Shown here in pieces: positions 17,448-41,474 of a stretch of DNA of 41,474 nt. Under the pieces are notes generated by a model. The model was given only the letters and a program-made list of their open reading frames with translations, ran no database searches and had not been told where the DNA came from. The position numbers and the translations under genes are program-made. How positions within the stretch are numbered: the stretch's first letter is position 1; every line of letters begins with the position of its first letter. This DNA is from Anaerolineae bacterium (GTDB lineage Bacteria; Chloroflexota; Anaerolineae; B4-G1; SLSP01): NCBI GenBank assembly GCA_034432995.1, contig DAOUAY010000624.1:1-41474 (forward strand). The letters are read 5' to 3'.

Positions 17448-17456
17448 TGGTATAAT
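17448..17456 (+). promoter_or_regulatory. Extended -10 promoter element (TGgTATAAT) for the exporter operon
   Basis: tggtataat at 17448-17456. The nearest -35-like hexamer, ttgcaa (17425-17430), sits at a suboptimal 20-nt spacing. The start codon is at 17523. Confidence 0.5.
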
Positions 17457-17498
17457 GACCGGGTCAACTATGACCCTGGTCAACATTGACCCCGGTCA
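17456..17498. promoter_or_regulatory. Three tandem palindromic operator-like sites, TGACC-N1-2-GGTCA
   Basis: tgaccgggtca (17456-17466), tgaccctggtca (17471-17482) and tgaccccggtca (17487-17498). Centre-to-centre spacing is about 15.5-16 bp, and the first site overlaps the last base of the -10 box. Confidence 0.6.
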
Positions 17499-17522
17499 TA
17501 TATATTGGGAAGAGGCAGTCCG

Positions 17523-19074
17523 ATGAAGAAAGTTATAACGTGGATCATCATTCTCGCCTTGATCGGCGGAGGGATCGCCGCGTATCTGTGGTGGCGCGGG
17601 GAGCAGGCAACGGCGCAGCAAAGCAGCAATATCCTCCGCACTGAGCAGGTGACGCGCGGTGATCTGAGCATCACGGTCGTCGCCAGTGGCAATGTTGCCG
17701 TCAACAACAAACTCGATCTGCGTTTCGACAGCAGCGGGATCGTCGATCGCGTGTACGTCCAGGCCAACCAGCGGGTACGGGCCGGCGAAGCACTGGCGCA
17801 ACTGGTTACGACGGACCTGGAACGGGCCGTGCAACAGGCGACCATCGCGCTGGAACAGGCCAAACTCAACCGCGATCTCCTCACCAAACCGGTGGCCACC
17901 GAGGATGTGGAATTGGCGCGTCTGAACGTCCAGAGCGCAGCGCAGGCGCTCGAAGTCGCGCGCATCGGCAAGCAGACGGCGCAGGTCGACGCCAACACGA
18001 TGATCGTCCAGGCACAACGCGCCCGCGAAAGCGCCTACAACGATTACAGCAAGCAACAAAACGAAGACGCGCGCCTCAAGTTTGAAAGAGCTGAGGAGCA
18101 GGAGTACATCGCCAGAAAGAATGCCGAGGTCACGCAGGAACAGGCGCAGGCGCAATGGCTGGCAGCTTACAGTCGTTACCAGCAAGCCGCTGAGAGCCTG
18201 CGCAAGCTCGAAGAAGGCCCTACCGAGCAGCAGGTACGCCAGGCCGAGTTGCAAATCGAACAAGCCGCCTTGAACCTGGAACAGGCGCAAGCCCGGTTGG
18301 CCGACGCGCGCCTCACCGCCCCCTTTGCCGGTTTGGTCGCGGCGGTCAACGTGCAAGAGGGCGTAGCGGCTGCACCTGGCGCGGCTGCGTTCACCCTGGT
18401 GGACGATTCGCAGTTCTACGTCGATGTGACGGTCGATGAGATCGACATCGGCAAAGTTAGCGTCGGGCAGAAGGCAGAAGTGACGCTGGATGCCTACCCG
18501 GATCGCGGCATCGACGGCGTCGTCGAGAGCATCGCGCCGGGCGCGCTCAACCTCGGCGGTATCATCTCGTATCGCTTGCGGGTACGGTTATCCCCTCCCC
18601 CCCTCACCTCCCCCCCCATCGGGGGGGACAGAGGGAGGGGCCTCCCCCCCATCGGGGGGGACAGAGGGAGGGGCCTCCCCCCCATCGGGGGGGACAGAGA
18701 GAGGGGCCTCCCCCCCATCGGGGGGGACAGAGGGAGGGGCCTCCCCCCCATCGGGGGGGACAGAGGGGGGGAAAGCAAGGGGGAGCACGATCCGCGACGG
18801 TATGACCGCCAGTATCGTAATCTACACTGCTACGGTCGAGAACGTTCTGCTTGCGCCGAACTGGGCAATACGGGCAGAGCAATCCAGCGGGGAAACCGTC
18901 TTGTACTGCTATGTGCTCAACAACGATGGCGTTCCCGAACGTCGCACGATCACTCGGGGGCGCTATGACGAATCGTTCACCGAGATCCTTTCCGGCCTGC
19001 AAGAAGGCGATACTGTGGCCCTGGTAACCGAAGAGCGCAACCTGCTCGATCTTATGCAGTTCGGTGGCCCTTGA
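17523..19074 (+). pseudogene. HlyD/MacA-type periplasmic adaptor (paralogue 1), frame-broken within an internal 33-bp repeat array
   Basis: The N-terminal part lies in the frame of ORF 17505-18968 ([16 protein letters not shown]..., coiled coil, ...ISYRLRVRL). The homologous C-terminal part (GMTASIVIYTATVENVLLAPNWAIRAEQ...VALVTEERNLLDLMQFGGP) lies in the +1 frame of ORF 18490-19074. Total length is 1552 nt, which is not a multiple of 3. The colinear paralogue at 19115-20524 is intact. Confidence 0.8.
18591..18775. repeat. Intragenic tandem array: 33-bp unit CCCCCCCATCGGGGGGGACAGAGGGAGGGGCCT, 4 full copies plus 1 partial copy
   Basis: C-tracts start at 18610/11, 18644, 18677, 18710 and 18743, an exact 33-nt period. 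Each unit contains a C7-ATC-G7 palindrome. Copy 1 has C8 (18610-18617) and copy 3 carries one G>A change. The array encodes PPIGGDRGRGL in one frame and PPSGGTEGGAS in the other. Confidence 0.9.
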
Positions 19075-19114: not shown

Positions 19115-20524
19115 ATGAAGAAAGCGATAACGTGGATCATCATCCTGGCCGTCATTGCTGGCGGGGTGTGGGGAGTACTGTGGTGGCGAGAGCAGCGCGC
19201 GCAATCGCAAAGCGCGACCGGTGACGTGCTGCGCACCGGACAGGTTACGCGCGGCGAACTGGTCATCAGCGTGCCCGCCAGCGGCAATGTCGCCGTCAAC
19301 CGAAAGGTGAACCTCAGCTTCAAATTGCCGGGAAACGTCACTGCTGTCTCCGTGGCGGTCAGCGATCAGGTCAAGGCCGGACAGGAATTGGCGCGACTGG
19401 ACACCGCCAATCTCGAACGGGCCGTGCGGCAGGCGGAGATCGCCCTCGAACAGGCGCGCCTCAACCTGGAAACCCTGCAAAAGCCTGCCACCGAAGCGGA
19501 CATCCGACTGGCAGAATTGGCCACCCAGAACGCAGCGCAAGCCCTCGAAGTCGCGCGCCTCAGCAAGGAAGCGGCGGAGGCGCAGGCCAGTCTGAGCATC
19601 CGTTCGGCGCAGGACGCAGCCGACAAAATGGAAGAGGCGTATGAAGGCGCAGTCGACCGGCTGGATCAAATGGGATTGCCGCTCTCTTACGCCGCCGGTG
19701 TCACCGCCGCTTACATGGAGGCCGAAGGCAATGTCGGCATCACGCAGGTCAAAGCTGAATACCAACTGCAACAAATTCGCAGTCAATGGCTGTCTGCTTA
19801 CCAGTCTTATCGACAGGCGCAGCAAAACCTCGCAAAACTACAAACCGGCCCCGATACCGATAGGATTCGCCAGATCGAATTGCAAATCGAACAGGCGAAG
19901 TTGAGTCTGGAGCAGGCGAAAGACAACCTGAACAATACCAGTCTCAGCGCCCCCTTCGAGGGCGTCGTCGCTGCGGTCAATATCCAGGCAGGGGCTGCCG
20001 CGCCTACCGGCCTCCCTGCGGTCACATTGCTGGACACGTCCGAATTGTACATCGAGGTCAACGTGGATGAAATCGACATCGGTAAAATCGCCGTGGGGCA
20101 GCCGGTGAGCGTCACCCTGGACGCGCATCCGCAGGCCACCTTGCCCGGCACAGTCGAGCGCATCGCCGCGACGCCTACCAATGTGGGCGGCGTGATCACC
20201 TACAAACTGCGCGTGAAACTGCTCGATACCGGCGGGCTGCTGGTGCTGGAGGGAATGACGGTCAGCGTCCTCATCCAGACAGACACCATCAGCGACGTGC
20301 TCCTCGTTCCCAACTGGGCCGTGCGCACCGACCAGACGAGCAGCGAAACCTATGTTTATCGCATGGTGGACGGCGTTCCCGTGCGCACAGCGATCAGCAC
20401 CGGCGAGCGCAGCGACACCTACACGATTGTCACCACGGGATTGCCAGAAGGCGCAACCGTGGCGCTGGTCACAGAGACGCGCAGCCTTTTTGACATGCAG
20501 GGTCCACCGTCGATGGGACGTTGA
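19115..20524 (+). CDS. HlyD/MacA-type periplasmic adaptor (paralogue 2, intact)
   Basis: [19 protein letters not shown] anchor, coiled-coil hairpin, [17 protein letters not shown] lipoyl-like motif and the barrel region [21 protein letters not shown]. By eye it is roughly half identical to paralogue 1. Confidence 0.88.
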
Positions 20525-20532
20525 GAGGGCTT

Positions 20533-21329
20533 ATGTCCAACGCACAAACAAAACGCCTCCCCATCGTGATCTGGATCAACGACATGCATAAAGTCTATAA
20601 AATGGGCGAGAACGAAGTCCATGCGCTGCGTGGCGTCTCGCTCGGGGTGAATCAGGGCGAAACCGTGGCGATCATGGGGCCGTCCGGCTCCGGGAAATCG
20701 ACGCTGATGAACATCCTGGGCTGTCTGGACCAACCGACGTGGGGCCAGTACACGCTCGACGGCAAAGATGTGAGCAAGATGAGCGATAACGACCTGGCGG
20801 CGGTGCGCAATCGCAAGGTGGGTTTTGTTTTCCAAAGTTTCAACTTGCTGCCGCGCACGACCGCCCTGGACAACGTGATGCTGCCGCTGGTCTACGCCGG
20901 AACCAGCACGCGCAAACGCCGCGAGCGCGCCAGGGAGATGCTGGAAGCCGTGGGGTTGGGAGATCGGATGCACCACACACCCAACGAGCTTTCGGGCGGA
21001 CAACAGCAGCGTGTGGCTATCGCTCGCGCGCTGGTCAACGAACCGGCTATCATCCTCGCCGACGAGCCGACCGGCAACCTGGACAGCTCCTCCGGCGAAG
21101 AAGTGATGTACATCCTCCAACAGCTCAACAACGAGCGCGGCATCACCATCATTCTGGTGACGCACGACCCGCGCATCGGCCATCACGCGCAGCGCATCAT
21201 CCACCTGTTCGACGGGAAAGTGCTCAAAGAGGAAATCGTCCCCGACCCCATCCAGGCGCGTGGCGGACCGGACCAGAATCCAGCGCAAGCGCAGGAGGCC
21301 GCTCCAGCGCAAGCGCAGGAGGTGGCGGC

Positions 21330-21333
<4 letters not shown>
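20533..21333 (+). CDS. MacB/LolD-type ABC transporter ATP-binding protein
   Basis: Walker [10 protein letters not shown], signature [15 protein letters not shown], Walker [13 protein letters not shown] and the H-loop VTHD. ATG 20533 follows GAGAGGG. The C-terminal tail is a duplicated PAQAQE(A/V)A. Confidence 0.92.
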
Positions 21334-22568
<1,235 letters not shown>

Positions 22569-32969: not shown

Positions 32970-33785
32970 TCACCCTTGCTGTTGAAGCGTTCGATCGGCG
33001 CTCGAAGTCCGATCAATCCACATTTGAACATCGTCGGCGTCTGCGCCCAGTACCCACCATCCTAAGAATTCTACGTTGCCGGCCGGGCCAAGTAGCGGGG
33101 AGACCATCAACCCGCGCAATCCCAGACCCAACGCCGCCATCTCCGCCGTCACCGTCTCCAAGACCTGCCGATGCACCGCCGGATCGCGCACCACGCCGCC
33201 CTTGCCGACGTCCGCGCGCCCGGCCTCGAACTGCGGTTTGATGAGCGAGATCACCGCGCCGCCAGGCGCAAGCCAGTTCACTGCCGTCGCGTAAACGATA
33301 CGCAGCGAGATGAACGACACGTCCGACACGATCACATCCACCGGCTCCGGCAGCGCCGCCAGATAACGCGCATTGACCCGCTCCATCACCACCACCCGCG
33401 CATCCTGGCGCAACGCCCAGGCCAGTTGCCCGTAGCTTACATCGATCGCGTAGACCTTCGCCGCGCCGTGCTGCAATAAGCAATCCGTGAATCCGCCCGT
33501 CGAAGCGCCGATGTCCGCCGCAACCGCCCCGCCAACATCGACCGGAAACCGTTCCAACGCCGCCGCCAGCTTCTCGCCGCCCCGGCTCACGAAGCGCGGT
33601 CTGGCTTTGAGGCTGATCGAGACATCTTCTGCCACGTCAACGCCCGGTTTGTCGACTAGTTGCCCGTCGACCAACACCTCACCCGCGCGGATAAAACGCT
33701 GCGCCAGAGAGAGTCCCTCCACCAGGCCACGCTCCACAAGTAGACTATCCAGGCGAACTTTCTGTTCGCAGCGCCGTTTTTTCAT
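32970..33785 (-). CDS. tlyA: TlyA-family rRNA 2'-O-methyltransferase (S4 plus FtsJ domains)
   Basis: RLDSLLVERGLVEGLSLAQRFIRAGEVLVDGQLVDKPG is the S4 domain. DIGASTGGFTDCLLQHGAAKVYAIDVSYGQL is the SAM-binding region. Confidence 0.88.
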   Translation of the reverse strand: MKKRRCEQKVRLDSLLVERGLVEGLSLAQRFIRAGEVLVDGQLVDKPGVDVAEDVSISLKARPRFVSRGGEKLAAALERFPVDVGGAVAADIGASTGGFTDCLLQHGAAKVYAIDVSYGQLAWALRQDARVVVMERVNARYLAALPEPVDVIVSDVSFISLRIVYATAVNWLAPGGAVISLIKPQFEAGRADVGKGGVVRDPAVHRQVLETVTAEMAALGLGLRGLMVSPLLGPAGNVEFLGWWVLGADADDVQMWIDRTSSADRTLQQQG

Positions 33786-34764
33786 GTGTGGTTGTTATTT
33801 TACCACCAATGTATGGGTTAGAAAGATCATCCGGCAGAGACGCCAGTAAATCGGCCAGATCCTCCGGTAGCGGAGCGGAGAAGGTCATCTTCTCTCCCGT
33901 CGTCGGATGCAGCAACGTCAACGCGCGCGCGTGGAGAAACTGGCGCGGCGCGGACAGCGGGCTATGCGCCGGGCCATAGACGACATCCCCCACCAGCGGA
34001 TAGCCGAGCCAGGCGAAATGCACCCGAATCTGATGCGTGCGCCCGGTCAGTAGTCGCACATCCAGCAGCGTGTAGACGCGATTTTGCGCATCGCGGTAGC
34101 GCCCGCGCACCTTCCAGCGGGTGCGCGCCGGTTTGCCATCCGCGATGACGGCCATACGCTGGCGATGAATGCGATGCCGCCCAATCGGCGCTTCGATCAC
34201 GCCCTCATCCTGCGCAATATTGCCGATCACCAGGGCGACGTAGGTTTTTTGCACCTCGCGCTCCTTGAACTGCCGTTGCAGCGCTCGAATCGCCCGATCA
34301 TGCTTGGCAACCACCAGCACGCCGGACGTGTCCTTGTCCAGCCGATGCACAATGCCGGGCCGCAACTCACCGCCGATCCCCCGCAAATCGTCGCAGTGCG
34401 CCAGCAGCGCGTTGACCAGCGTGCCCGAAAGATTTCCCGCGCCTGGATGCACCACCATGCCTGCCGCTTTATTGATCACCAGGATGTCCGCATCCTCGTA
34501 CAATATATCCAGTGGCAGGGCTTCTGGGGACAGCGTCGCGGGCTGTGGGGGGGGAATTCGTACCACCACCGTATCGCCGCGCCGCACTTTATGCGACGAT
34601 CTGGGCGCAGCGCCATTCACCGTCACTTCCCCCGCGTCGATCAGCCGCTGCACTGCCGTGCGCGACAGTTCCGGCAACGCCTCAGCAATGAAGCTGTCGA
34701 TGCGCCCGCCATCGGCTTCGACGAATAGGGTGAACGTCGGGCTGCCGTCTGCCTCGACGGTCAT
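33745..34764 (-). CDS. rluD: RluA-family 23S rRNA pseudouridine synthase (RluD-like)
   Basis: S4 domain (RIDSFIAEALPELSRTAVQRLIDAGEVTVNG), catalytic HRLDKDTSGVLVVAK, and GRTHQIRVH. ATG 34764 forms an ATGA overlap with the hutI stop. The longer track ORF (to 35142) is an R/G-rich shadow over hutI. Confidence 0.9.
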   Translation of the reverse strand: MTVEADGSPTFTLFVEADGGRIDSFIAEALPELSRTAVQRLIDAGEVTVNGAAPRSSHKVRRGDTVVVRIPPPQPATLSPEALPLDILYEDADILVINKAAGMVVHPGAGNLSGTLVNALLAHCDDLRGIGGELRPGIVHRLDKDTSGVLVVAKHDRAIRALQRQFKEREVQKTYVALVIGNIAQDEGVIEAPIGRHRIHRQRMAVIADGKPARTRWKVRGRYRDAQNRVYTLLDVRLLTGRTHQIRVHFAWLGYPLVGDVVYGPAHSPLSAPRQFLHARALTLLHPTTGEKMTFSAPLPEDLADLLASLPDDLSNPYIGGKITTTHEKTALRTESSPG

Positions 34765-36053
34765 GCGGACACCACCTGTCCGTTCACCGCGACGACTTCG
34801 CCGCCTTTGACGACCATCGCCACGGGATTCGTTCCGAAGCGATAGCCCAGATGCCGGTAATCGGGCGCATCCAGGATCAACAAATCGCCCGCGTACCCCG
34901 GCGCGAGGCTCCCCACCCGGTCGCCCAGACCGAGCGCGCACGCCGCGTTCAACGTCGCCGCGACGAGCGCCTGCGCGGGCGTGAGCCGCAGATAGCGGCA
35001 CGCCAGCGCGATGACGAAGGGCAGCGACTCGTTCCAGGCGGTTCCCGGATTGCAGTCGCTCGCCAGCGCCAGCGCCGCGCCTGCTTCCAGAAGCGCGCGA
35101 GCGGGTGTGTAGTCGCGGTGTCCCAGACCGAACGGCGTACACGGCAACGACACCGCCACTGTCTCCGCCGCGCCCAGCGCCGCGATGTCCTCCGGCGGCG
35201 TCGTGACCAGGTGATCCGCCGACGTCGCGCCCAATTCCACGGCCAGGCGCGTCCCGCCCAGCGACGCAAACTCATCCACGTGAATTTTCAATGGGAAGCC
35301 CAACGCCCGCGCCGCCTCAAGGATACGCCGGCTCTGCGCCAGATCGAACGCGCCGTCTTCGCAAAACACATCACAAAAGGGCAAACGCTCCGATCCCAAC
35401 GCGCGCGACTTCTCCACCACGGCGGGCAACATCTCGTGAATCACCATATCCACATAAGTGTCGGCGCGACCCTTGAACTCGGCGGGGACGGCGTGCGCGC
35501 CCAGGAATGTCGGCACCAGTGTCGCCGGGTGGCTGCGGTCGAGCGTGACAATCGCTTCCAACTGCCGCAATTCGGCAGCAGTTTCCAGGCCGTAGCCGGT
35601 CTTCACCTCGACCGTCGTTGCGCCGTGGGCCAGCAGCCGGTCGAGACGCGGGCGCATTGCCGCAACCAGCTCATCCACGGAGACCTCGCGGGTAGCGCGC
35701 ACGGTGGACATAATCCCGCCGCCCGCCGCCATAATCTCCATATACGTCGCGCCAGCAATGCGCTGCTCGAACTCTGCCGCGCGGTCGCCCATCCACACCA
35801 GATGCGTGTGCGGATCGACGAAGCCAGGGCAGACCACTTTGCCGCGTGCATCAATCTCGCGGGTGGCGCGATACTGACTCACCAATTCCTGGGTCGATCC
35901 CACCGCAACCACCCGGCCCGTGGCAATCGCTACCGCGCCATCTGCGATGAGACCCAACTCGCCTAAAGCTATACCGCGCTGCGGGCTGCCCCCCTGTGTC
36001 GGGATTACACACAGTTGCGCTGCCGAATGAACCAGCAAATCTACAGTTTTCAT
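34761..36053 (-). CDS. hutI: Imidazolonepropionase
   Basis: PGFVDPHTHLVWMGDRAAEFEQRIAGATYMEIMAAGGGIMSTVRATR, KIHVDEF, and SDCNPG. ATG 36053 follows GGAGAAGGGG. No hutH or hutU is nearby. Confidence 0.88.
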   Translation of the reverse strand: MKTVDLLVHSAAQLCVIPTQGGSPQRGIALGELGLIADGAVAIATGRVVAVGSTQELVSQYRATREIDARGKVVCPGFVDPHTHLVWMGDRAAEFEQRIAGATYMEIMAAGGGIMSTVRATREVSVDELVAAMRPRLDRLLAHGATTVEVKTGYGLETAAELRQLEAIVTLDRSHPATLVPTFLGAHAVPAEFKGRADTYVDMVIHEMLPAVVEKSRALGSERLPFCDVFCEDGAFDLAQSRRILEAARALGFPLKIHVDEFASLGGTRLAVELGATSADHLVTTPPEDIAALGAAETVAVSLPCTPFGLGHRDYTPARALLEAGAALALASDCNPGTAWNESLPFVIALACRYLRLTPAQALVAATLNAACALGLGDRVGSLAPGYAGDLLILDAPDYRHLGYRFGTNPVAMVVKGGEVVAVNGQVVSA

Positions 36054-39139: not shown

Positions 39140-41218
39140 CTAGGGAAGATCGAGGACGCCCCAAACACAGATTTTACCGCTGTCGGAGCCGATAAAAGCA
39201 GCGCCAGAGCCATCCAGGGTGAGTGCGGTGATGGCTTCGTTAGTAACGCGCAGGCGATGCATGGTCAGGTTGGCATCGGCAAAAAGCAGGTCTCCCCCCG
39301 TCGTCCCCCCGAGGATAAGGGACTTCTCCCCCCCACTTTCCCCTCCAATGGGGGGGACGTAAGGGGGGGAGATCCACAGCAGCACCGCGAGCGCGCCATC
39401 GAGCGCCGGTCGGCGTTGATGCACCTTCACCCCCTGCGCCAGGTTCCACAGCACCCACTGCCCGGCCTCGTCCACGGATAAGGCGTAGTCGCCCTGCGGC
39501 GCAAAGGCAATGAAGCGCACCGGCGCGCTGTGACCTTCCAGTACGGCGAGTTCAGTGCCCGCGCTCAGATCCCACAGGCGGACTACACCATCGGCAGCGC
39601 CCGACAGCGCGCGCGGCGGCGAGGCATGTGTTGCCAATGCCGTCACCGGACTCTCCGGGGCAGGCAACAGCCACACCAGCCCGCCAGTCTCCGGCTTCAC
39701 TACCCACAGATAGCCGTTCTCCAGTCCCAGCACCAGTTGTGATGCTCCATCGACATAAGCCAGCGTTTGAATACGCGAAAAGGTTGAAACCCGACTGCGC
39801 AACACGCGCGTCCACGACGGGAATGCATACACGTAGAGATCGCGCTCTTGCGCCACAGCGACCTGCCCGGCAGAGCGGGAGAGCGCAAAAACAGCAGGCG
39901 GCAGCCCATTGGCGACCCGCATCACCTGGGCCAACGCCGGGAAACTGTGACGTGATGTCGTCGCGGATTGCATGGCTCGCACCTCGCCGTTGGCGGCATC
40001 CAGGGCTAAAACCGGCTCCGGTGCGGTGTGATAGCAACCGAGCAGCCTGGCGGTCGAGGCAAATGGCTCGCCCGGCGTCGGCACAGGCGTACCGGCGGCA
40101 ACGGGCCAGTAGTAAGGTGTTGGCGTCAACGTCGGCGTGCTGGTGAAGGTGGGCCAGGGCGTGGGTGTTGCGCCAATAGCCAGCGCCGGGCGTACCGTCG
40201 TCGTCAGCGGGGCAAAGACGGACACCGGATAGAACTGCGCGACGCCCCACAAGGCCGCAAGTACCCCCGCCACGGCAAACAGCTTGGCAGGCCAGCCTTC
40301 AAAAATCAACACAAGCCACGTCAGACCGAGCGCCAGCGCCCAGATCCCCCCGATCAGAAAAGTCGGCCCTAGCACATGCAGCAGCGCACGCCACGACGCT
40401 ACGAACAGCCCGACTGTCGCAGCGGAGAAAGACCGGCCAAACCATGCCCGTATATCCGGCGGCTGGAACATATCCAAAATAGCCAGCAGCCCGACCGCGC
40501 CGACAATCAACCCCGAAGTGAGCAATGGAACACTGATGCAGACCCACCGCTTGCGATCAGGCACCAGCAAAGTGGCGACAAGCGCCAGCGCCAACGCCAA
40601 CAGCGGCGCATACCACACCCAGCGCAGCCATGGCGGAGATTCGGGCCACGCGGCCATCGTGTCCGTCTCGGCCTCGGCAAACAGGGCGGCCAGCTCGGCG
40701 ACATAATCCTGCCACCACACCTGCTGTAGCTGCCCCACGGCGGAATGCGCGCCTGGATCGACGGGGACGCAATAGGACGTATCAGCCTCTGCGCAGGATG
40801 GCAGCGCGCGCCACAACCAATCACGCAAGAGTTCTCCTTGCGCCCCGGTCAGGTACTGTTCCACGTCTGGCGCCAGGCGCTCTGGGGGCGGCGCCTCGCC
40901 AAATCCCCAGGCGATCCAGGCCGGGCCCAGGCGCATCACTGCCGCTTCGACATCCACAGTCGCCAACGCCGCATCGAACAGCGCGCGCAGCGTCTCCGGC
41001 TCACGCGACACCCACGGCGACCACACCTCAGCGGGAATCTGGCGCGGCAGATCGACGGCAAGCGCAGTGCTGGCCTGTGCGACAAAATCGCTTTCGCGCA
41101 ACCAGCGCTGATAGAAAACCGGATTCAACAGTGTGTAACGCGCCAGCCACGTCGTCAGCGCAAAGACACTCACCAACGAAGCGAGCAAGCTCAGAACAAG
41201 CGCGATACGCAGTTTCAT
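39140..41218 (-). CDS. Polytopic membrane protein with a C-terminal WD40-like beta-propeller and an in-frame repeat-element insertion
   Basis: Signal peptide or TM at the N-terminus, several TM segments in the middle, and a TPTPWPTFTSTPTLTPTP linker. WD-type blades are present (GVVRLWDLSAGTELAVLEGHSAPVRFIAFAPQGDYALSVDEAGQWVLWNL). There is no SD before the ATG at 41218, so the start is moderately uncertain. Confidence 0.75.
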   Translation of the reverse strand: MKLRIALVLSLLASLVSVFALTTWLARYTLLNPVFYQRWLRESDFVAQASTALAVDLPRQIPAEVWSPWVSREPETLRALFDAALATVDVEAAVMRLGPAWIAWGFGEAPPPERLAPDVEQYLTGAQGELLRDWLWRALPSCAEADTSYCVPVDPGAHSAVGQLQQVWWQDYVAELAALFAEAETDTMAAWPESPPWLRWVWYAPLLALALALVATLLVPDRKRWVCISVPLLTSGLIVGAVGLLAILDMFQPPDIRAWFGRSFSAATVGLFVASWRALLHVLGPTFLIGGIWALALGLTWLVLIFEGWPAKLFAVAGVLAALWGVAQFYPVSVFAPLTTTVRPALAIGATPTPWPTFTSTPTLTPTPYYWPVAAGTPVPTPGEPFASTARLLGCYHTAPEPVLALDAANGEVRAMQSATTSRHSFPALAQVMRVANGLPPAVFALSRSAGQVAVAQERDLYVYAFPSWTRVLRSRVSTFSRIQTLAYVDGASQLVLGLENGYLWVVKPETGGLVWLLPAPESPVTALATHASPPRALSGAADGVVRLWDLSAGTELAVLEGHSAPVRFIAFAPQGDYALSVDEAGQWVLWNLAQGVKVHQRRPALDGALAVLLWISPPYVPPIGGESGGEKSLILGGTTGGDLLFADANLTMHRLRVTNEAITALTLDGSGAAFIGSDSGKICVWGVLDLP
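39291..39371. repeat. G/C-homopolymer-rich element inside a CDS (in frame), related to the 33-bp unit at 18591-18775
   Basis: Tracts are C6, C6, C7-8, C4, G7 and G7. The minus strand reads cccccccattggagggg and encodes PPIGGESGGE, compared with cccccccatcggggggg encoding PPIGGDRGRG in the adaptor gene. The C7...G7 tracts (39328-39356) can pair. Confidence 0.7.
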
Positions 41219-41220
41219 AG

Positions 41221-41248
41221 CGAATTACGAATTACGAATTACGAATTG
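41221..41248. repeat. Heptanucleotide tandem repeat CGAATTA x4
   Basis: Three perfect units plus cgaattg. It begins 3 nt upstream of the ATG (41218) of the minus-strand WD40 gene. Confidence 0.9.
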
Positions 41249-41250
41249 CA

Positions 41251-41285
41251 AGTAAAGAGTGAAGAGTGAAGAGTAAAGAATGGAG
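41251..41285. repeat. Heptanucleotide tandem repeat AGTRAAG x5 (degenerate)
   Basis: agtaaag agtgaag agtgaag agtaaag aatggag. This is a near reverse complement of the CCTTACT array. Confidence 0.85.
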
Positions 41286-41303
41286 GGAAAAGTCTTTGTT
41301 GCA

Positions 41304-41352
41304 CCTTACTCCTTACTCCTTACTCCTTACTCCTTACTCCTTACTCCTTACT
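41304..41352. repeat. Heptanucleotide tandem repeat CCTTACT x7 (perfect)
   Basis: Seven identical contiguous units at 41304-41352. Confidence 0.95.
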
Positions 41353-41474
41353 CGACTTTTGCAGCGCCGAAAAGGGGCGCGGAACCTTAACAACAACAGA
41401 TAATCAGGGCGTGTTCCAGGGAGCGAGCCGCACGCTCCCCTCCCAGCCACCGGAGTGGCCGGGCTATGAGAACC

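What the first reader, a model, noticed from the sequence alone, without database searches (positions are those of the whole stretch)
18591..18775. 33-bp x5 palindromic G7/C7 tandem array inside an adaptor gene, coinciding with a +1 frame break at an odd C8 tract
The first MacA/HlyD-like adaptor is colinear with its intact downstream paralogue except for an insertion after ...YRLRVRL. The insertion consists of five tandem copies of CCCCCCCATCGGGGGGGACAGAGGGAGGGGCCT, 33 bp or 11 codons each. The N-terminal homology is in one frame and the C-terminal homology (GMTASIVIY...LMQFGGP) is in the +1 frame. Both frames are open across the array. Every repeat has C7 except the first, which has C8 (18610-18617). 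Removing one C would restore a continuous reading frame of 517 codons (516 aa plus stop) carrying a (PPSGGTEGGAS)n insert. The possible explanations are a homopolymer sequencing or assembly error, a recent pseudogenisation, or slipped-strand (phase-variable) ON/OFF control of one adaptor paralogue. The unit also has strong hairpin (C7-ATC-G7) and G-quadruplex/i-motif potential on both strands.
Basis: seen in the sequence. Interest (0 to 1): 0.7.

Follow-up and report, generated by a model that had tools for sequence, protein, structure and literature searches.

The report
Coding repeat from a spreading palindrome
The five-copy G/C repeat inside this transporter-adaptor gene is an amplified copy of a 42-base palindromic element found throughout the protein-coding genes of Anaerolineae bacteria and normally read in frame, while the one extra C that breaks the frame is seen only in this assembly.

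Summary
There is a 33-bp x 4.9 array at 18611-18771, a C8 tract at 18610-18617 where the other copies have C7, and a +1 frame break between the N- and C-terminal homology. Deleting one C gives a 516-aa protein.

The break is not conserved. A 99.97%-identical genome (GCA_964534215.1) reads C7 at this tract. This is the only indel in 23 kb of comparison. About 25 orthologues I read at this site are all in frame.

The insert sits in a disordered beta-hairpin loop of the adaptor's beta-barrel domain. It is a coding VNTR: relatives carry 0, 1, 2, 3, 4, 5, 6 or 7 units, always in frame.

The unit comes from a dispersed element of about 42 bp, C7-N5-C7-N3-G7-N5-G7. A scan found more than 116 loci, 85% of them in Chloroflexota MAGs. 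In that set, 40 of 48 canonical copies lie inside long open frames. All six I tested are real genes. A second copy in this window (39328-39372, WD40 gene) is present or absent among close orthologues.

I conclude the C8 is a one-off slippage product. It could be a real recent mutation or a consensus error; reads are needed to decide. Programmed phase variation is not supported. The element family resembles Rickettsia palindromic elements, and I found no description of it in the literature I could search.

The parts
17523..18590 (+). Adaptor 1 (YknX/MacA/HlyD-type membrane-fusion protein), N-terminal 356 codons up to ...YRLRVRL, in reading frame A
   Evidence: Pfam HlyD_D23, HlyD_3 and Biotin_lipoyl_2. 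Orthologues are 60-86% identical.
18591..18789 (+). The whole insert relative to element-free orthologues. It is 199 nt here and would be 198 nt (66 codons) with C7. Layout: outer C-arm, TCACCT, 4.9 units of 33 bp, outer G-arm, AAAGCAAGGGGGAGCACG.
   Evidence: Orthologues without the element have a 7-codon loop at this site (TDTRAVN in L128, TETGDVV in P0034). AlphaFold2 places the insert in a disordered loop between two beta strands.
18597..18603 (+). Outer C7 arm of the ancestral nested palindrome
   Evidence: Matches the family layout C7-N5/6-C7-N3-G7-N5-G7. A single-copy orthologue (L129) shows the canonical element at this site.
18610..18617 (+). C8 tract, the site of the +1 frame break. 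It is C7 in the near-identical genome and in orthologues.
   Evidence: L004 (GCA_964534215.1) reads C7 here, and this is the only indel in 23 kb of comparison. L072, L130 and L123 also read C7.
18611..18771 (+). 33-bp tandem array, 4.9 copies. In the repaired frame it encodes (PPSGGTEGGAS)n.
   Evidence: TRF. Copy number varies from 1 to 7 among orthologues, always in frame.
18790..19074 (+). Adaptor 1 C-terminal part (IRDGMTASIVIY...LMQFGGP plus stop), in frame B, which is +1 relative to frame A
   Evidence: Translation and alignment to the paralogue and orthologues.
19115..20524 (+). Adaptor 2, an intact paralogue without the insert
   Evidence: Pfam. 41% identical and colinear. The tandem adaptor pair is conserved in synteny.
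20521..22568 (+). MacB-type ABC transporter: ATPase (20521-21333) and MacB_PCD/FtsX permease (21330-22568), in the same operon
   Evidence: Pfam.
39328..39372 (-). Second member of the element family in the window. On the minus strand it reads TCT-C7-TTACGT-C7-ATT-GGAGGGG-AAAGT-G7. It is 45 nt (15 codons) and is read in frame as ISPPYVPPIGGESGG in a membrane/WD40 protein.
   Evidence: Sequence and translation. There is a clean 15-codon presence/absence among orthologues 82-91% identical.

Best explanation
The array is a tandemly amplified derivative of one copy of a ~42-bp nested G/C palindrome, C7-N5-C7-N3-G7-N5-G7. This element belongs to a dispersed repeat family in Anaerolineae/Chloroflexota genomes whose copies lie mostly inside protein-coding genes and are read through in frame. 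Whatever the frame or orientation, C runs encode Pro-Pro and G runs encode Gly-Gly, so the element always yields a flexible PPxxPPxGGxxGG loop.

One copy entered the loop between two beta strands of the beta-barrel domain of the first YknX/MacA-type adaptor in an ancestor of this clade. Its inner 33 bp (11 codons) has since expanded and contracted, presumably by replication slippage or unequal recombination (inferred). Close relatives therefore carry 1 to 7 units, always in frame.

The gene is normally intact with C7. The C8 in this window is a single-base slippage product at the first homopolymer and is unique to this assembly. If it is real, it truncates adaptor 1 and replaces the last ~95 residues with an out-of-frame tail, leaving adaptor 2 and the MacB pump intact. 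I put the odds at about 55:45 for a real, recent mutation in the sampled population against a consensus error.

Shown here: the anatomy, the C7 in the near-identical genome, the in-frame orthologues, the copy-number series, the dispersed family, its in-ORF location, and the loop position. Inferred: the amplification mechanism, how the element spreads, and whether C8 exists in the cells.
For: C8 versus C7:
- L004 is 99.976% identical to the window and reads C7. This is the only indel in 23.3 kb of L004 plus L001 comparison.
- 18 other homopolymers of 6 bases or more agree between the two assemblies.

Orthologues:
- The sister-species orthologue L072 is an intact ORF through a 3-copy array.
- Units at this site: 0 (P0027/L128, P0034, P0033), 1 (P0003, P0004/L129, P0010, P0012, P0014, P0023, P0026, P0029), 2 (P0002/L130, P0007), 3 (L072), 4 (P0011, L125), 6 (P0001), 7 (L123). 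All are in frame.

Dispersed family:
- The scan for CCCCCCCATYGGRGGGGA gave more than 116 stretches. 99 of the 116 are labelled with Chloroflexota lineages, covering about 43 MAG species, with up to about 17 loci per genome.
- The nested-palindrome consensus has modal length 42, and 155 of 192 runs are exactly 7 long.

In-frame, in genes:
- 40 of 48 canonical copies lie in frames open for at least 60 codons on both sides, and all six relative frames are used.
- All six spanning ORFs I tested are real genes: GH94, RecD2, GH2 beta-galactosidase, a histidine kinase, HsdR and a MutL-like protein. The element lies inside a Pfam domain in four of them.
- The same 33-bp unit occurs in tandem and in frame in an unrelated gene (L124).
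- Tandem periods elsewhere are mostly 30, 33 or 36.
- The second element in the window shows a clean 45-nt presence/absence.

Structure: in the 6-copy orthologue the insert has pLDDT below 50 and no secondary structure, and it lies between strands 347-356 and 438-455.
Against: - No reads were available, so C8 could be purely an assembly error, and copy numbers in short-read assemblies can be collapsed. Three assemblies break at this very array or element (L004/L001, L005, P0030).
- The ORF-spanning test discriminates weakly in 60% GC DNA: 82% of elements against 76% of random positions.
- No transposase, target-site duplication or conserved target was found, so mobility is inferred only from dispersal and presence/absence.
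- The enrichment of multiples of three among inter-hairpin spacings is modest (23 of 46).
Confidence: 0.8

Rival explanations
1. Pure artefact: the genome has C7 and the extra C is a homopolymer or consensus error made while assembling an 80% GC, hairpin-forming tandem repeat. The gene would then be an ordinary intact gene with an in-frame insert.
For: - A 99.97%-identical genome has C7.
- All orthologues are in frame.
- C7 is the canonical run length in the family (155 of 192 runs).
- The array is hard to assemble: contigs break in it in GCA_964534215.1 and at the same site in GCA_034434455.1.
- The frame-shifted protein P0008 is recorded on a single contig.
Against: The window shows no general homopolymer problem. 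There are no other indels in 23 kb against the independent assembly, and 18 other tracts of 6 bases or more agree, including 11 seven-mers in the array itself. The contig's modest length, and its passage through the array only thanks to a unique G>A in copy 3, look like a short-read assembly, where consensus indels are rare. That last point is my inference.
Confidence: 0.4
2. Adaptive phase variation: slipped-strand mispairing in the C/G runs is used as a reversible ON/OFF switch for adaptor 1. This would be a contingency locus in an environmental bacterium.
For: - Two populations differing by only 6 substitutions in 23 kb differ in tract length.
- Two of the seven differences between them fall in the 165-bp array.
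- The array holds 12 G or C runs of 7 or 8, and copy number changes quickly among relatives.
- An intact paralogue could cover the OFF state.
Against: - Only one frame-shifted allele was seen against about 25 in-frame orthologous sequences from independent assemblies.
- The tract lies about 70% of the way into the gene.
- The same tracts occur in housekeeping-type genes such as a helicase, a glycosidase and HsdR, so they come with the element rather than being tuned for this gene.
- 7-8 bases is at the low end of the tract lengths known to switch (established knowledge of contingency loci).
Confidence: 0.1
3. Plain pseudogenisation: adaptor 1 is being lost in this lineage and the frameshift is the first lesion.
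For: The frame is broken and a paralogue sits immediately downstream.
Against: Both halves are otherwise undamaged and about 100% identical to the C7 genome. The two-adaptor arrangement is conserved across the clade. The orthologues are not disrupted. There are no further lesions.
Confidence: 0.1
4. Programmed recoding: the ribosome shifts +1 on the C8 (CCC-C proline codons) ahead of a stable structure, so full-length adaptor is made from the C8 allele.
For: CCC-C is a known +1-prone context for tRNA-Pro (established knowledge, not tested here). The tract is followed by a strong hairpin or G4 motif.
Against: C8 is not conserved in any relative, whereas a programmed site would be. Any such shifting would be incidental leakiness.
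Confidence: 0.03

Closest known systems
Rickettsia palindromic elements (RPEs; Ogata et al. 2000 Science, 2002 Genome Res, as summarised in PMC10969869)
   Same: Both are dispersed palindromic repeat families whose copies sit inside unrelated protein-coding genes, are read through in frame, land in tolerated surface positions, and show presence/absence among orthologues.
   Different: RPEs are about 100-150 bp, AT-rich, and confined to obligate intracellular Rickettsia. This element is about 42 bp, built from four G/C heptamers, found in free-living Anaerolineae, and often amplified in tandem. They share no sequence. It is an analogue, not a member.
REP / REPIN elements mobilised by RAYT transposases (PMC3733652)
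   Same: Both are short (20-40 bp) G+C-rich imperfect palindromes present in many copies, without target-site duplications.
   Different: REPs are by definition extragenic and carry a conserved GTAG or CGTC head. Most copies here are intragenic and have no such head. No RAYT gene was looked for.
Coding VNTRs / intragenic tandem repeats of surface proteins, including palindromic PARCEL repeats (PMC2996958, abstract seen)
   Same: The repeat unit is a multiple of three, copy number varies among close strains, and the encoded segment is flexible and exposed.
   Different: Here the unit derives from a genome-wide dispersed element rather than arising within the gene. The host protein is a periplasmic adaptor of an ABC pump.
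Slipped-strand contingency loci of host-adapted pathogens (Neisseria, Haemophilus, Campylobacter)
   Same: A G/C homopolymer inside an ORF whose length change shifts the frame.
   Different: There is no evidence of recurrent ON/OFF states. The tract is short and lies far from the 5' end. The tracts are a by-product of the element and occur in many kinds of gene.
Mobile GC clusters and 'byp' elements of yeast mitochondria; coding palindromes in Nematomorpha mitochondria (PMC6649704, abstract)
   Same: Short GC-rich hairpin elements that colonise coding sequence without destroying the gene.
   Different: Those are organellar. Byps are skipped by the ribosome rather than translated. The resemblance is recalled from knowledge and was not tested here.

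Membership tests
HlyD/MacA/YknX-type membrane-fusion (adaptor) protein | Lipoyl-like, coiled-coil and beta-barrel domains, encoded next to a MacB-type ABC transporter | tested here: met
   Pfam HlyD_D23, HlyD_3 and Biotin_lipoyl_2. ABC_tran, MacB_PCD and FtsX are encoded downstream. Precomputed Beta-barrel_YknX and YknX_C hits on orthologues and the paralogue. The AlphaFold2 fold is confident outside the insert.
Coding VNTR (in-frame minisatellite) | Head-to-tail repeats with a unit divisible by three | tested here: met
   Period 33, 4.9 copies.
Coding VNTR (in-frame minisatellite) | Copy number differs among close relatives while the frame is kept | tested here: met
   1, 2, 3, 4, 6 and 7 units in orthologues, all in frame. 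P0001 and P0002 match on both sides of the array and differ by 6 versus 2 units.
RPE-like in-frame intragenic palindromic element | Multi-copy and dispersed within genomes | tested here: met
   More than 116 loci, up to about 17 per MAG, from a scan that stopped early. Additional non-seed copies occur at 0.5-0.9 per 10 kb in the fetched loci.
RPE-like in-frame intragenic palindromic element | Copies lie inside ORFs and preserve the frame | tested here: met
   40 of 48 lie in frames open for at least 60 codons on both sides. Six of six tested ORFs are real genes. The control is weak: 76% of random positions also pass.
RPE-like in-frame intragenic palindromic element | Presence/absence at orthologous sites | tested here: met
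   Adaptor site: 0 versus 1 or more units. WD40 site: a clean 45-nt indel among proteins 82-91% identical.
RPE-like in-frame intragenic palindromic element | Sequence or size relationship to the Rickettsia RPE families (100-150 bp) | tested here: not met
   The element is 39-45 bp and made of C7/G7 runs. Not a member, only an analogue.
REP / REPIN | Extragenic location | tested here: not met
   83% of canonical copies lie inside long open frames.
REP / REPIN | Conserved GTAG or CGTC tetranucleotide head | tested here: not met
   The flanks show only T/G at -1 and A/C at +1.
REP / REPIN | Cognate RAYT (IS200/IS605-like Y1) transposase in the genome | not tested
   Whole genomes were not scanned.
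MITE | Terminal inverted repeats plus target-site duplication | tested here: not met
   The outer C7/G7 arms could act as inverted repeats, but direct repeats at the flanks do not exceed the shuffled expectation. No duplication is visible at the filled versus empty WD40 site.
Phase-variable contingency locus | A simple repeat tract in the ORF whose length change shifts the frame | tested here: met
   C8 versus C7 at 18610-18617.
Phase-variable contingency locus | Recurrent ON and OFF alleles among strains or orthologues | tested here: not met
   One shifted allele (this window) against about 25 in-frame sequences. A search for the out-of-frame tail found nothing but also missed the window's own protein, so it is uninformative.
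Phase-variable contingency locus | Tract-length heterogeneity within a population | not testable with these tools
   No reads were available.
Known RNA families | Match to an Rfam model | tested here: not met
   No match at gathering threshold anywhere in the window.

The most novel reading that the evidence does not exclude
Anaerolineae carry a previously undescribed class of very short (about 42 bp) mobile or self-propagating nested G/C palindromes. They colonise protein-coding genes in all six frames because their C7/G7 design always encodes a harmless Pro/Gly loop. They then expand in tandem in steps of 30-36 bp. This would be a free-living counterpart of the Rickettsia 'protein-coding palindromes'. 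As a side effect it seeds hundreds of genes with slippage-prone homopolymers and G-quadruplex motifs, so frame breaks like this one may be a recurrent, partly reversible source of variation.
Probability: 0.4. Interest if true: 0.75.

Novelty: new variant of a known kind. Interest (0 to 1): 0.55.

Why it matters
For this gene, the frame break should not be annotated as a conserved pseudogene or as a regulatory switch. The normal state is an intact adaptor with a variable Pro/Gly-rich loop.

More broadly, in-frame 'selfish' palindromes in coding DNA have been treated as a peculiarity of Rickettsia. A second, unrelated and much shorter family in abundant free-living Chloroflexota would show the strategy is general. 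It would also give a natural experiment on which protein loops tolerate insertions.

There is a practical consequence as well. These elements break short-read assemblies (three examples here) and produce apparent frameshifts in Anaerolineae MAGs. They also place canonical G-quadruplex motifs inside mRNAs.

Tried and rejected
- Metagenome scan for the exact left junction (31-mer), to obtain more independent C7/C8 calls: 0 hits.
- Protein search with the out-of-frame tail, to find other frame-shifted alleles: nothing returned, not even the window's own P0008, so it is uninformative.
- Look-ups for Logan contigs of the same strain crossing the junction: only flanking operon pieces were found.
- Target-site duplication and conserved-target search at 56 element flanks: no signal above shuffles.
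- Structure significance: the hairpins are predicted but are not better than dinucleotide shuffles, so no claim of a selected RNA structure. There is no Rfam family.
- A longer multi-copy sequence around the hairpin in MAG R24_80 looked like a possible IS end. Inspection showed an intergenic composite repeat next to an ordinary gene, with no transposase.
- Survey of the 8 canonical copies not spanned by an ORF for frameshift signatures: ambiguous, since they lie at gene ends or junctions, and high GC gives spurious open frames.
- Other overlapping ORF pairs in the window (3481/3738 and 33745/34761) were checked as possible further frameshifts. They are separate genes or spurious ORF extensions.
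- Literature: no paper in the held library contains the core 17-mers, and keyword searches found nothing on such elements in Anaerolineae or Chloroflexi.
Full report
**1.

Tandem Repeats Finder reports one array at 18611-18771: period 33, 4.9 copies, 97% matches, unit CCCCCCCATCGGGGGGGACAGAGGGAGGGGCCT. The C7-ATC-G7 core occurs five times exactly, against 0.02 expected from shuffles. The first C run is C8 (18610-18617) and the other four are C7. Copy 3 carries a G>A at 18700, and the fifth copy ends in G7.

The N-terminal adaptor homology (HlyD_D23, HlyD_3, Biotin_lipoyl_2) is in ORF 17505-18968, with the real start at ATG 17523. The C-terminal homology is in the +1 frame, ORF 18490-19074. Deleting one C gives 516 aa plus a stop. 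The downstream paralogue (19115-20524) is colinear at 41% identity and lacks the insert. A MacB-type ATPase and permease follow.

**2. The frame break is unique to this assembly**

Look-ups by exact neighbouring proteins found the same organism in GCA_964534215.1. Contig CAZHPH010000018 (L004) ends inside the array and contig CAZHPH010000132 (L001) starts inside it. Together they cover window 6192-29462. They differ from the window by six substitutions and one indel, and the indel is the C8 tract, which is C7 in L004. Eighteen other homopolymers of 6 bases or more agree, including eleven 7-mers in the array. One of the six substitutions is the G/A at 18700, so two of the seven differences fall within 165 bp.

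The sister-species representative (JAIOAS010000122, L072) has an intact ORF reading ...YRLRVRLSSPPLTSPPSGGTERGASPPSGGTERGASPPSGGTEGGDEEEGTIRDGMTAS....

**3. The insert is an old, copy-number-variable coding repeat**

Units found at the same site:

| Units | Orthologues |
|---|---|
| 0 | P0027/L128 (HLTDTRAVNIRDGMT), P0034, P0033 |
| 1 | P0004/L129 (DNA C4TC3-TCTGT-C7-GAT-G7-ATAAA-G8, protein SPPSVPPDGGDKGGGT), P0003, P0010, P0012, P0014, P0023, P0026, P0029 |
| 2 | P0002/L130, P0007 |
| 3 | L072 |
| 4 | P0011, L125 |
| 5 | this window |
| 6 | P0001 |
| 7 | L123 |

All of these except the window are in frame. P0001 and P0002 have matching sequence on both sides of the array, yet carry 6 and 2 units.

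AlphaFold2 on the 6-unit orthologue gives a confident adaptor fold (mean pLDDT 79). The insert (residues 361-429) has pLDDT below 50 and no secondary structure. It lies between strands 347-356 (YRLRVRL) and 438-455 (GMTASVVIY), so it is an expanded beta-hairpin loop.

**4. The unit belongs to a dispersed element family**

Of the 116 listed, 99 are labelled Anaerolineae, Anaerolineales, Anaerolineaceae, Caldilineaceae, Thermoflexales or Chloroflexi(ota). These come from about 43 MAG species, with up to about 17 loci per genome.

The contexts show a nested palindrome: C7-(TCTTT/TTCAT/TCTGT)-C7-(ATT/AAT/ATC)-G7-(ATGAA/AAAGA/ACAGA)-G7. Its modal length is 42 bp, and 155 of 192 runs are exactly 7 long.

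Forty of 48 canonical copies lie in frames open for at least 60 codons on both sides. All six relative frames are used, and they give PPxxPPxGGxxGG peptides. Random positions pass this test at 76%. The elements are therefore not excluded from genes, but the test alone is weak.

All six spanning ORFs I tested are real genes: GH94, a RecD2 helicase, GH2 beta-galactosidase (two copies), a histidine kinase, HsdR and a MutL-like protein. The element lies inside a Pfam domain in four of them.

The same 33-bp unit occurs twice in tandem, in frame, in an unrelated gene (L124). Tandem periods elsewhere are mainly 30, 33 and 36. No target-site duplication or conserved target was found. Non-seed copies occur at about 0.5-0.9 per 10 kb in the fetched loci of the richest genomes. 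This is a rough estimate, because those loci were chosen for containing a seed.

**5. A second copy lies in this window**

At 39328-39372 on the minus strand, TCT-C7-TTACGT-C7-ATT-GGAGGGG-AAAGT-G7 is read as ISPPYVPPIGGESGG in a membrane/WD40 protein. Orthologues show a clean 15-codon presence/absence:

- Present in P0122 and P0124.
- Degenerate in P0129 and P0134.
- Absent in P0121 (91% identical), P0123, P0126 and all distant ones.

At the DNA level it is a 45-nt indel with no visible duplication.

**6. Mechanism**

Shown here: one element sits in a tolerated loop, its inner 33 bp varies in number among close relatives, the frame is kept everywhere except in this window, and the C8 differs from a near-identical genome.

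Inferred:
- Amplification and contraction occur by replication slippage or unequal recombination between units.
- The +1 C arose by slippage in the homopolymer, either in the cells or during sequencing and assembly.
- The element spreads by an unknown route. There is no duplication and no head motif, and its hairpin nature hints at a single-strand or hairpin-dependent process, but nothing was tested.

I lean slightly (about 55:45) towards a real mutation. The window shows no other indel in 23 kb, and it appears to cross the array only because of the unique copy-3 variant, which is how a short-read assembler would behave. Only reads can settle this.

If the C8 is real, adaptor 1 loses its last beta strands and its C-terminal domain, while adaptor 2 and the pump stay intact. 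Some +1 slippage of tRNA-Pro on CCC-C could leak full-length protein. That rests on established knowledge of such sites and was not tested.

**7. Structure-forming potential**

Four of the six plus-strand canonical G4 motifs of the whole window, and the only minus-strand one, are in the array. Another is in the second element. The nested hairpin is the predicted fold, but its energies are not better than dinucleotide shuffles. No Rfam family matches.

**8. Comparison with known systems**

The closest analogue is the Rickettsia palindromic elements, which are dispersed palindromes inserted in frame in unrelated genes (PMC10969869, citing Ogata 2000 and 2002). The present family is three times shorter, G/C-homopolymer based, lives in free-living Chloroflexota and is prone to tandem amplification. 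It fails RPE membership on size and sequence.

It fails REP membership because it is intragenic and has no GTAG/CGTC head. It fails MITE membership because it has no target-site duplication. The array itself meets the definition of a coding VNTR. The contingency-locus reading meets the tract criterion but fails the recurrence criterion.

No paper in the searchable library contains the core 17-mers or describes such elements in Anaerolineae. That is limited evidence for novelty.

**9. Verdict**

The reported frame break is most likely a one-off slip, real or artefactual, in an otherwise intact gene, and on its own it is of low interest. The thing it sits in is more interesting: an in-frame, copy-number-variable derivative of an apparently undescribed family of coding palindromic elements.

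Noticed in passing
window 39328-39372 (minus strand), inside ORF 39140-41218: A second, single copy of the same nested C7/G7 element is read in frame (ISPPYVPPIGGESGG) in a membrane/WD40 protein. It shows a clean 45-nt presence/absence among orthologues 82-91% identical, and the closest orthologue lacks it.
   Followed up: yes
window 17454-17498: Three head-to-tail 16-bp units, each holding a palindrome TGACCnnGGTCA, lie immediately upstream of the adaptor-1 ribosome-binding site. This looks like a triple operator for a dimeric repressor of the pump operon.
   Followed up: no
window 41221-41353: Heptamer tandem repeats (CGAATTA x4, AGAGTGA-like x3, CCTTACT x7) lie in the intergenic region just upstream of the WD40-protein start, near the contig end.
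   Followed up: no
L004 end / L001 start (window ~18727); L005 end (window ~18593); P0030 C-terminus: Three independent MAG assemblies break exactly at this element or array. These elements therefore fragment short-read assemblies of Anaerolineae and leave 'partial' adaptor genes in databases.
   Followed up: partly
L085 4507-4549 and L029 (~124-141): Two different histidine kinases carry the element at the same structural spot of the HATPase_c domain, between ...W(V/L)ES and G(L/M)GS(T/I)F. This suggests either a preferred target or survival only in tolerated loops.
   Followed up: partly
L095 4640-4900, also L027, L035, L037, L047, L061, L066, L081, L108 (MAG R24_80): In one Anaerolineae MAG the hairpin is part of a longer intergenic composite repeat present in at least nine places: C7AACG7-AATGCACGCGATAGAGTCTTTCCT-C7ATTG7-ATTAAAG8-ACTTGCTCAAGTACGCTGAGACAAACTATGGCGAATACTTTATGAC. 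No transposase lies next to it.
   Followed up: partly
L126 11600-11737 and L127 1-250: A repeat with a period of about 90 bp combines the C7-ATC-G7-ACAGAGGGAG core with a 60-bp spacer. It is open in frame (…SSPPSGGTEGETQGETSTGRENRQQNSL…) and sits at contig ends.
   Followed up: no
window 34547-34554: A G8 tract lies inside the RluD-like pseudouridine synthase gene (33745-35142, minus strand), between the S4 and catalytic domains. It is in frame and is not part of an element.
   Followed up: partly
(tool behaviour): The word-index protein search with the 65-aa out-of-frame tail did not return the window's own protein P0008, which contains it exactly. Negative results from short queries in that tool are therefore not informative.
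   Followed up: no
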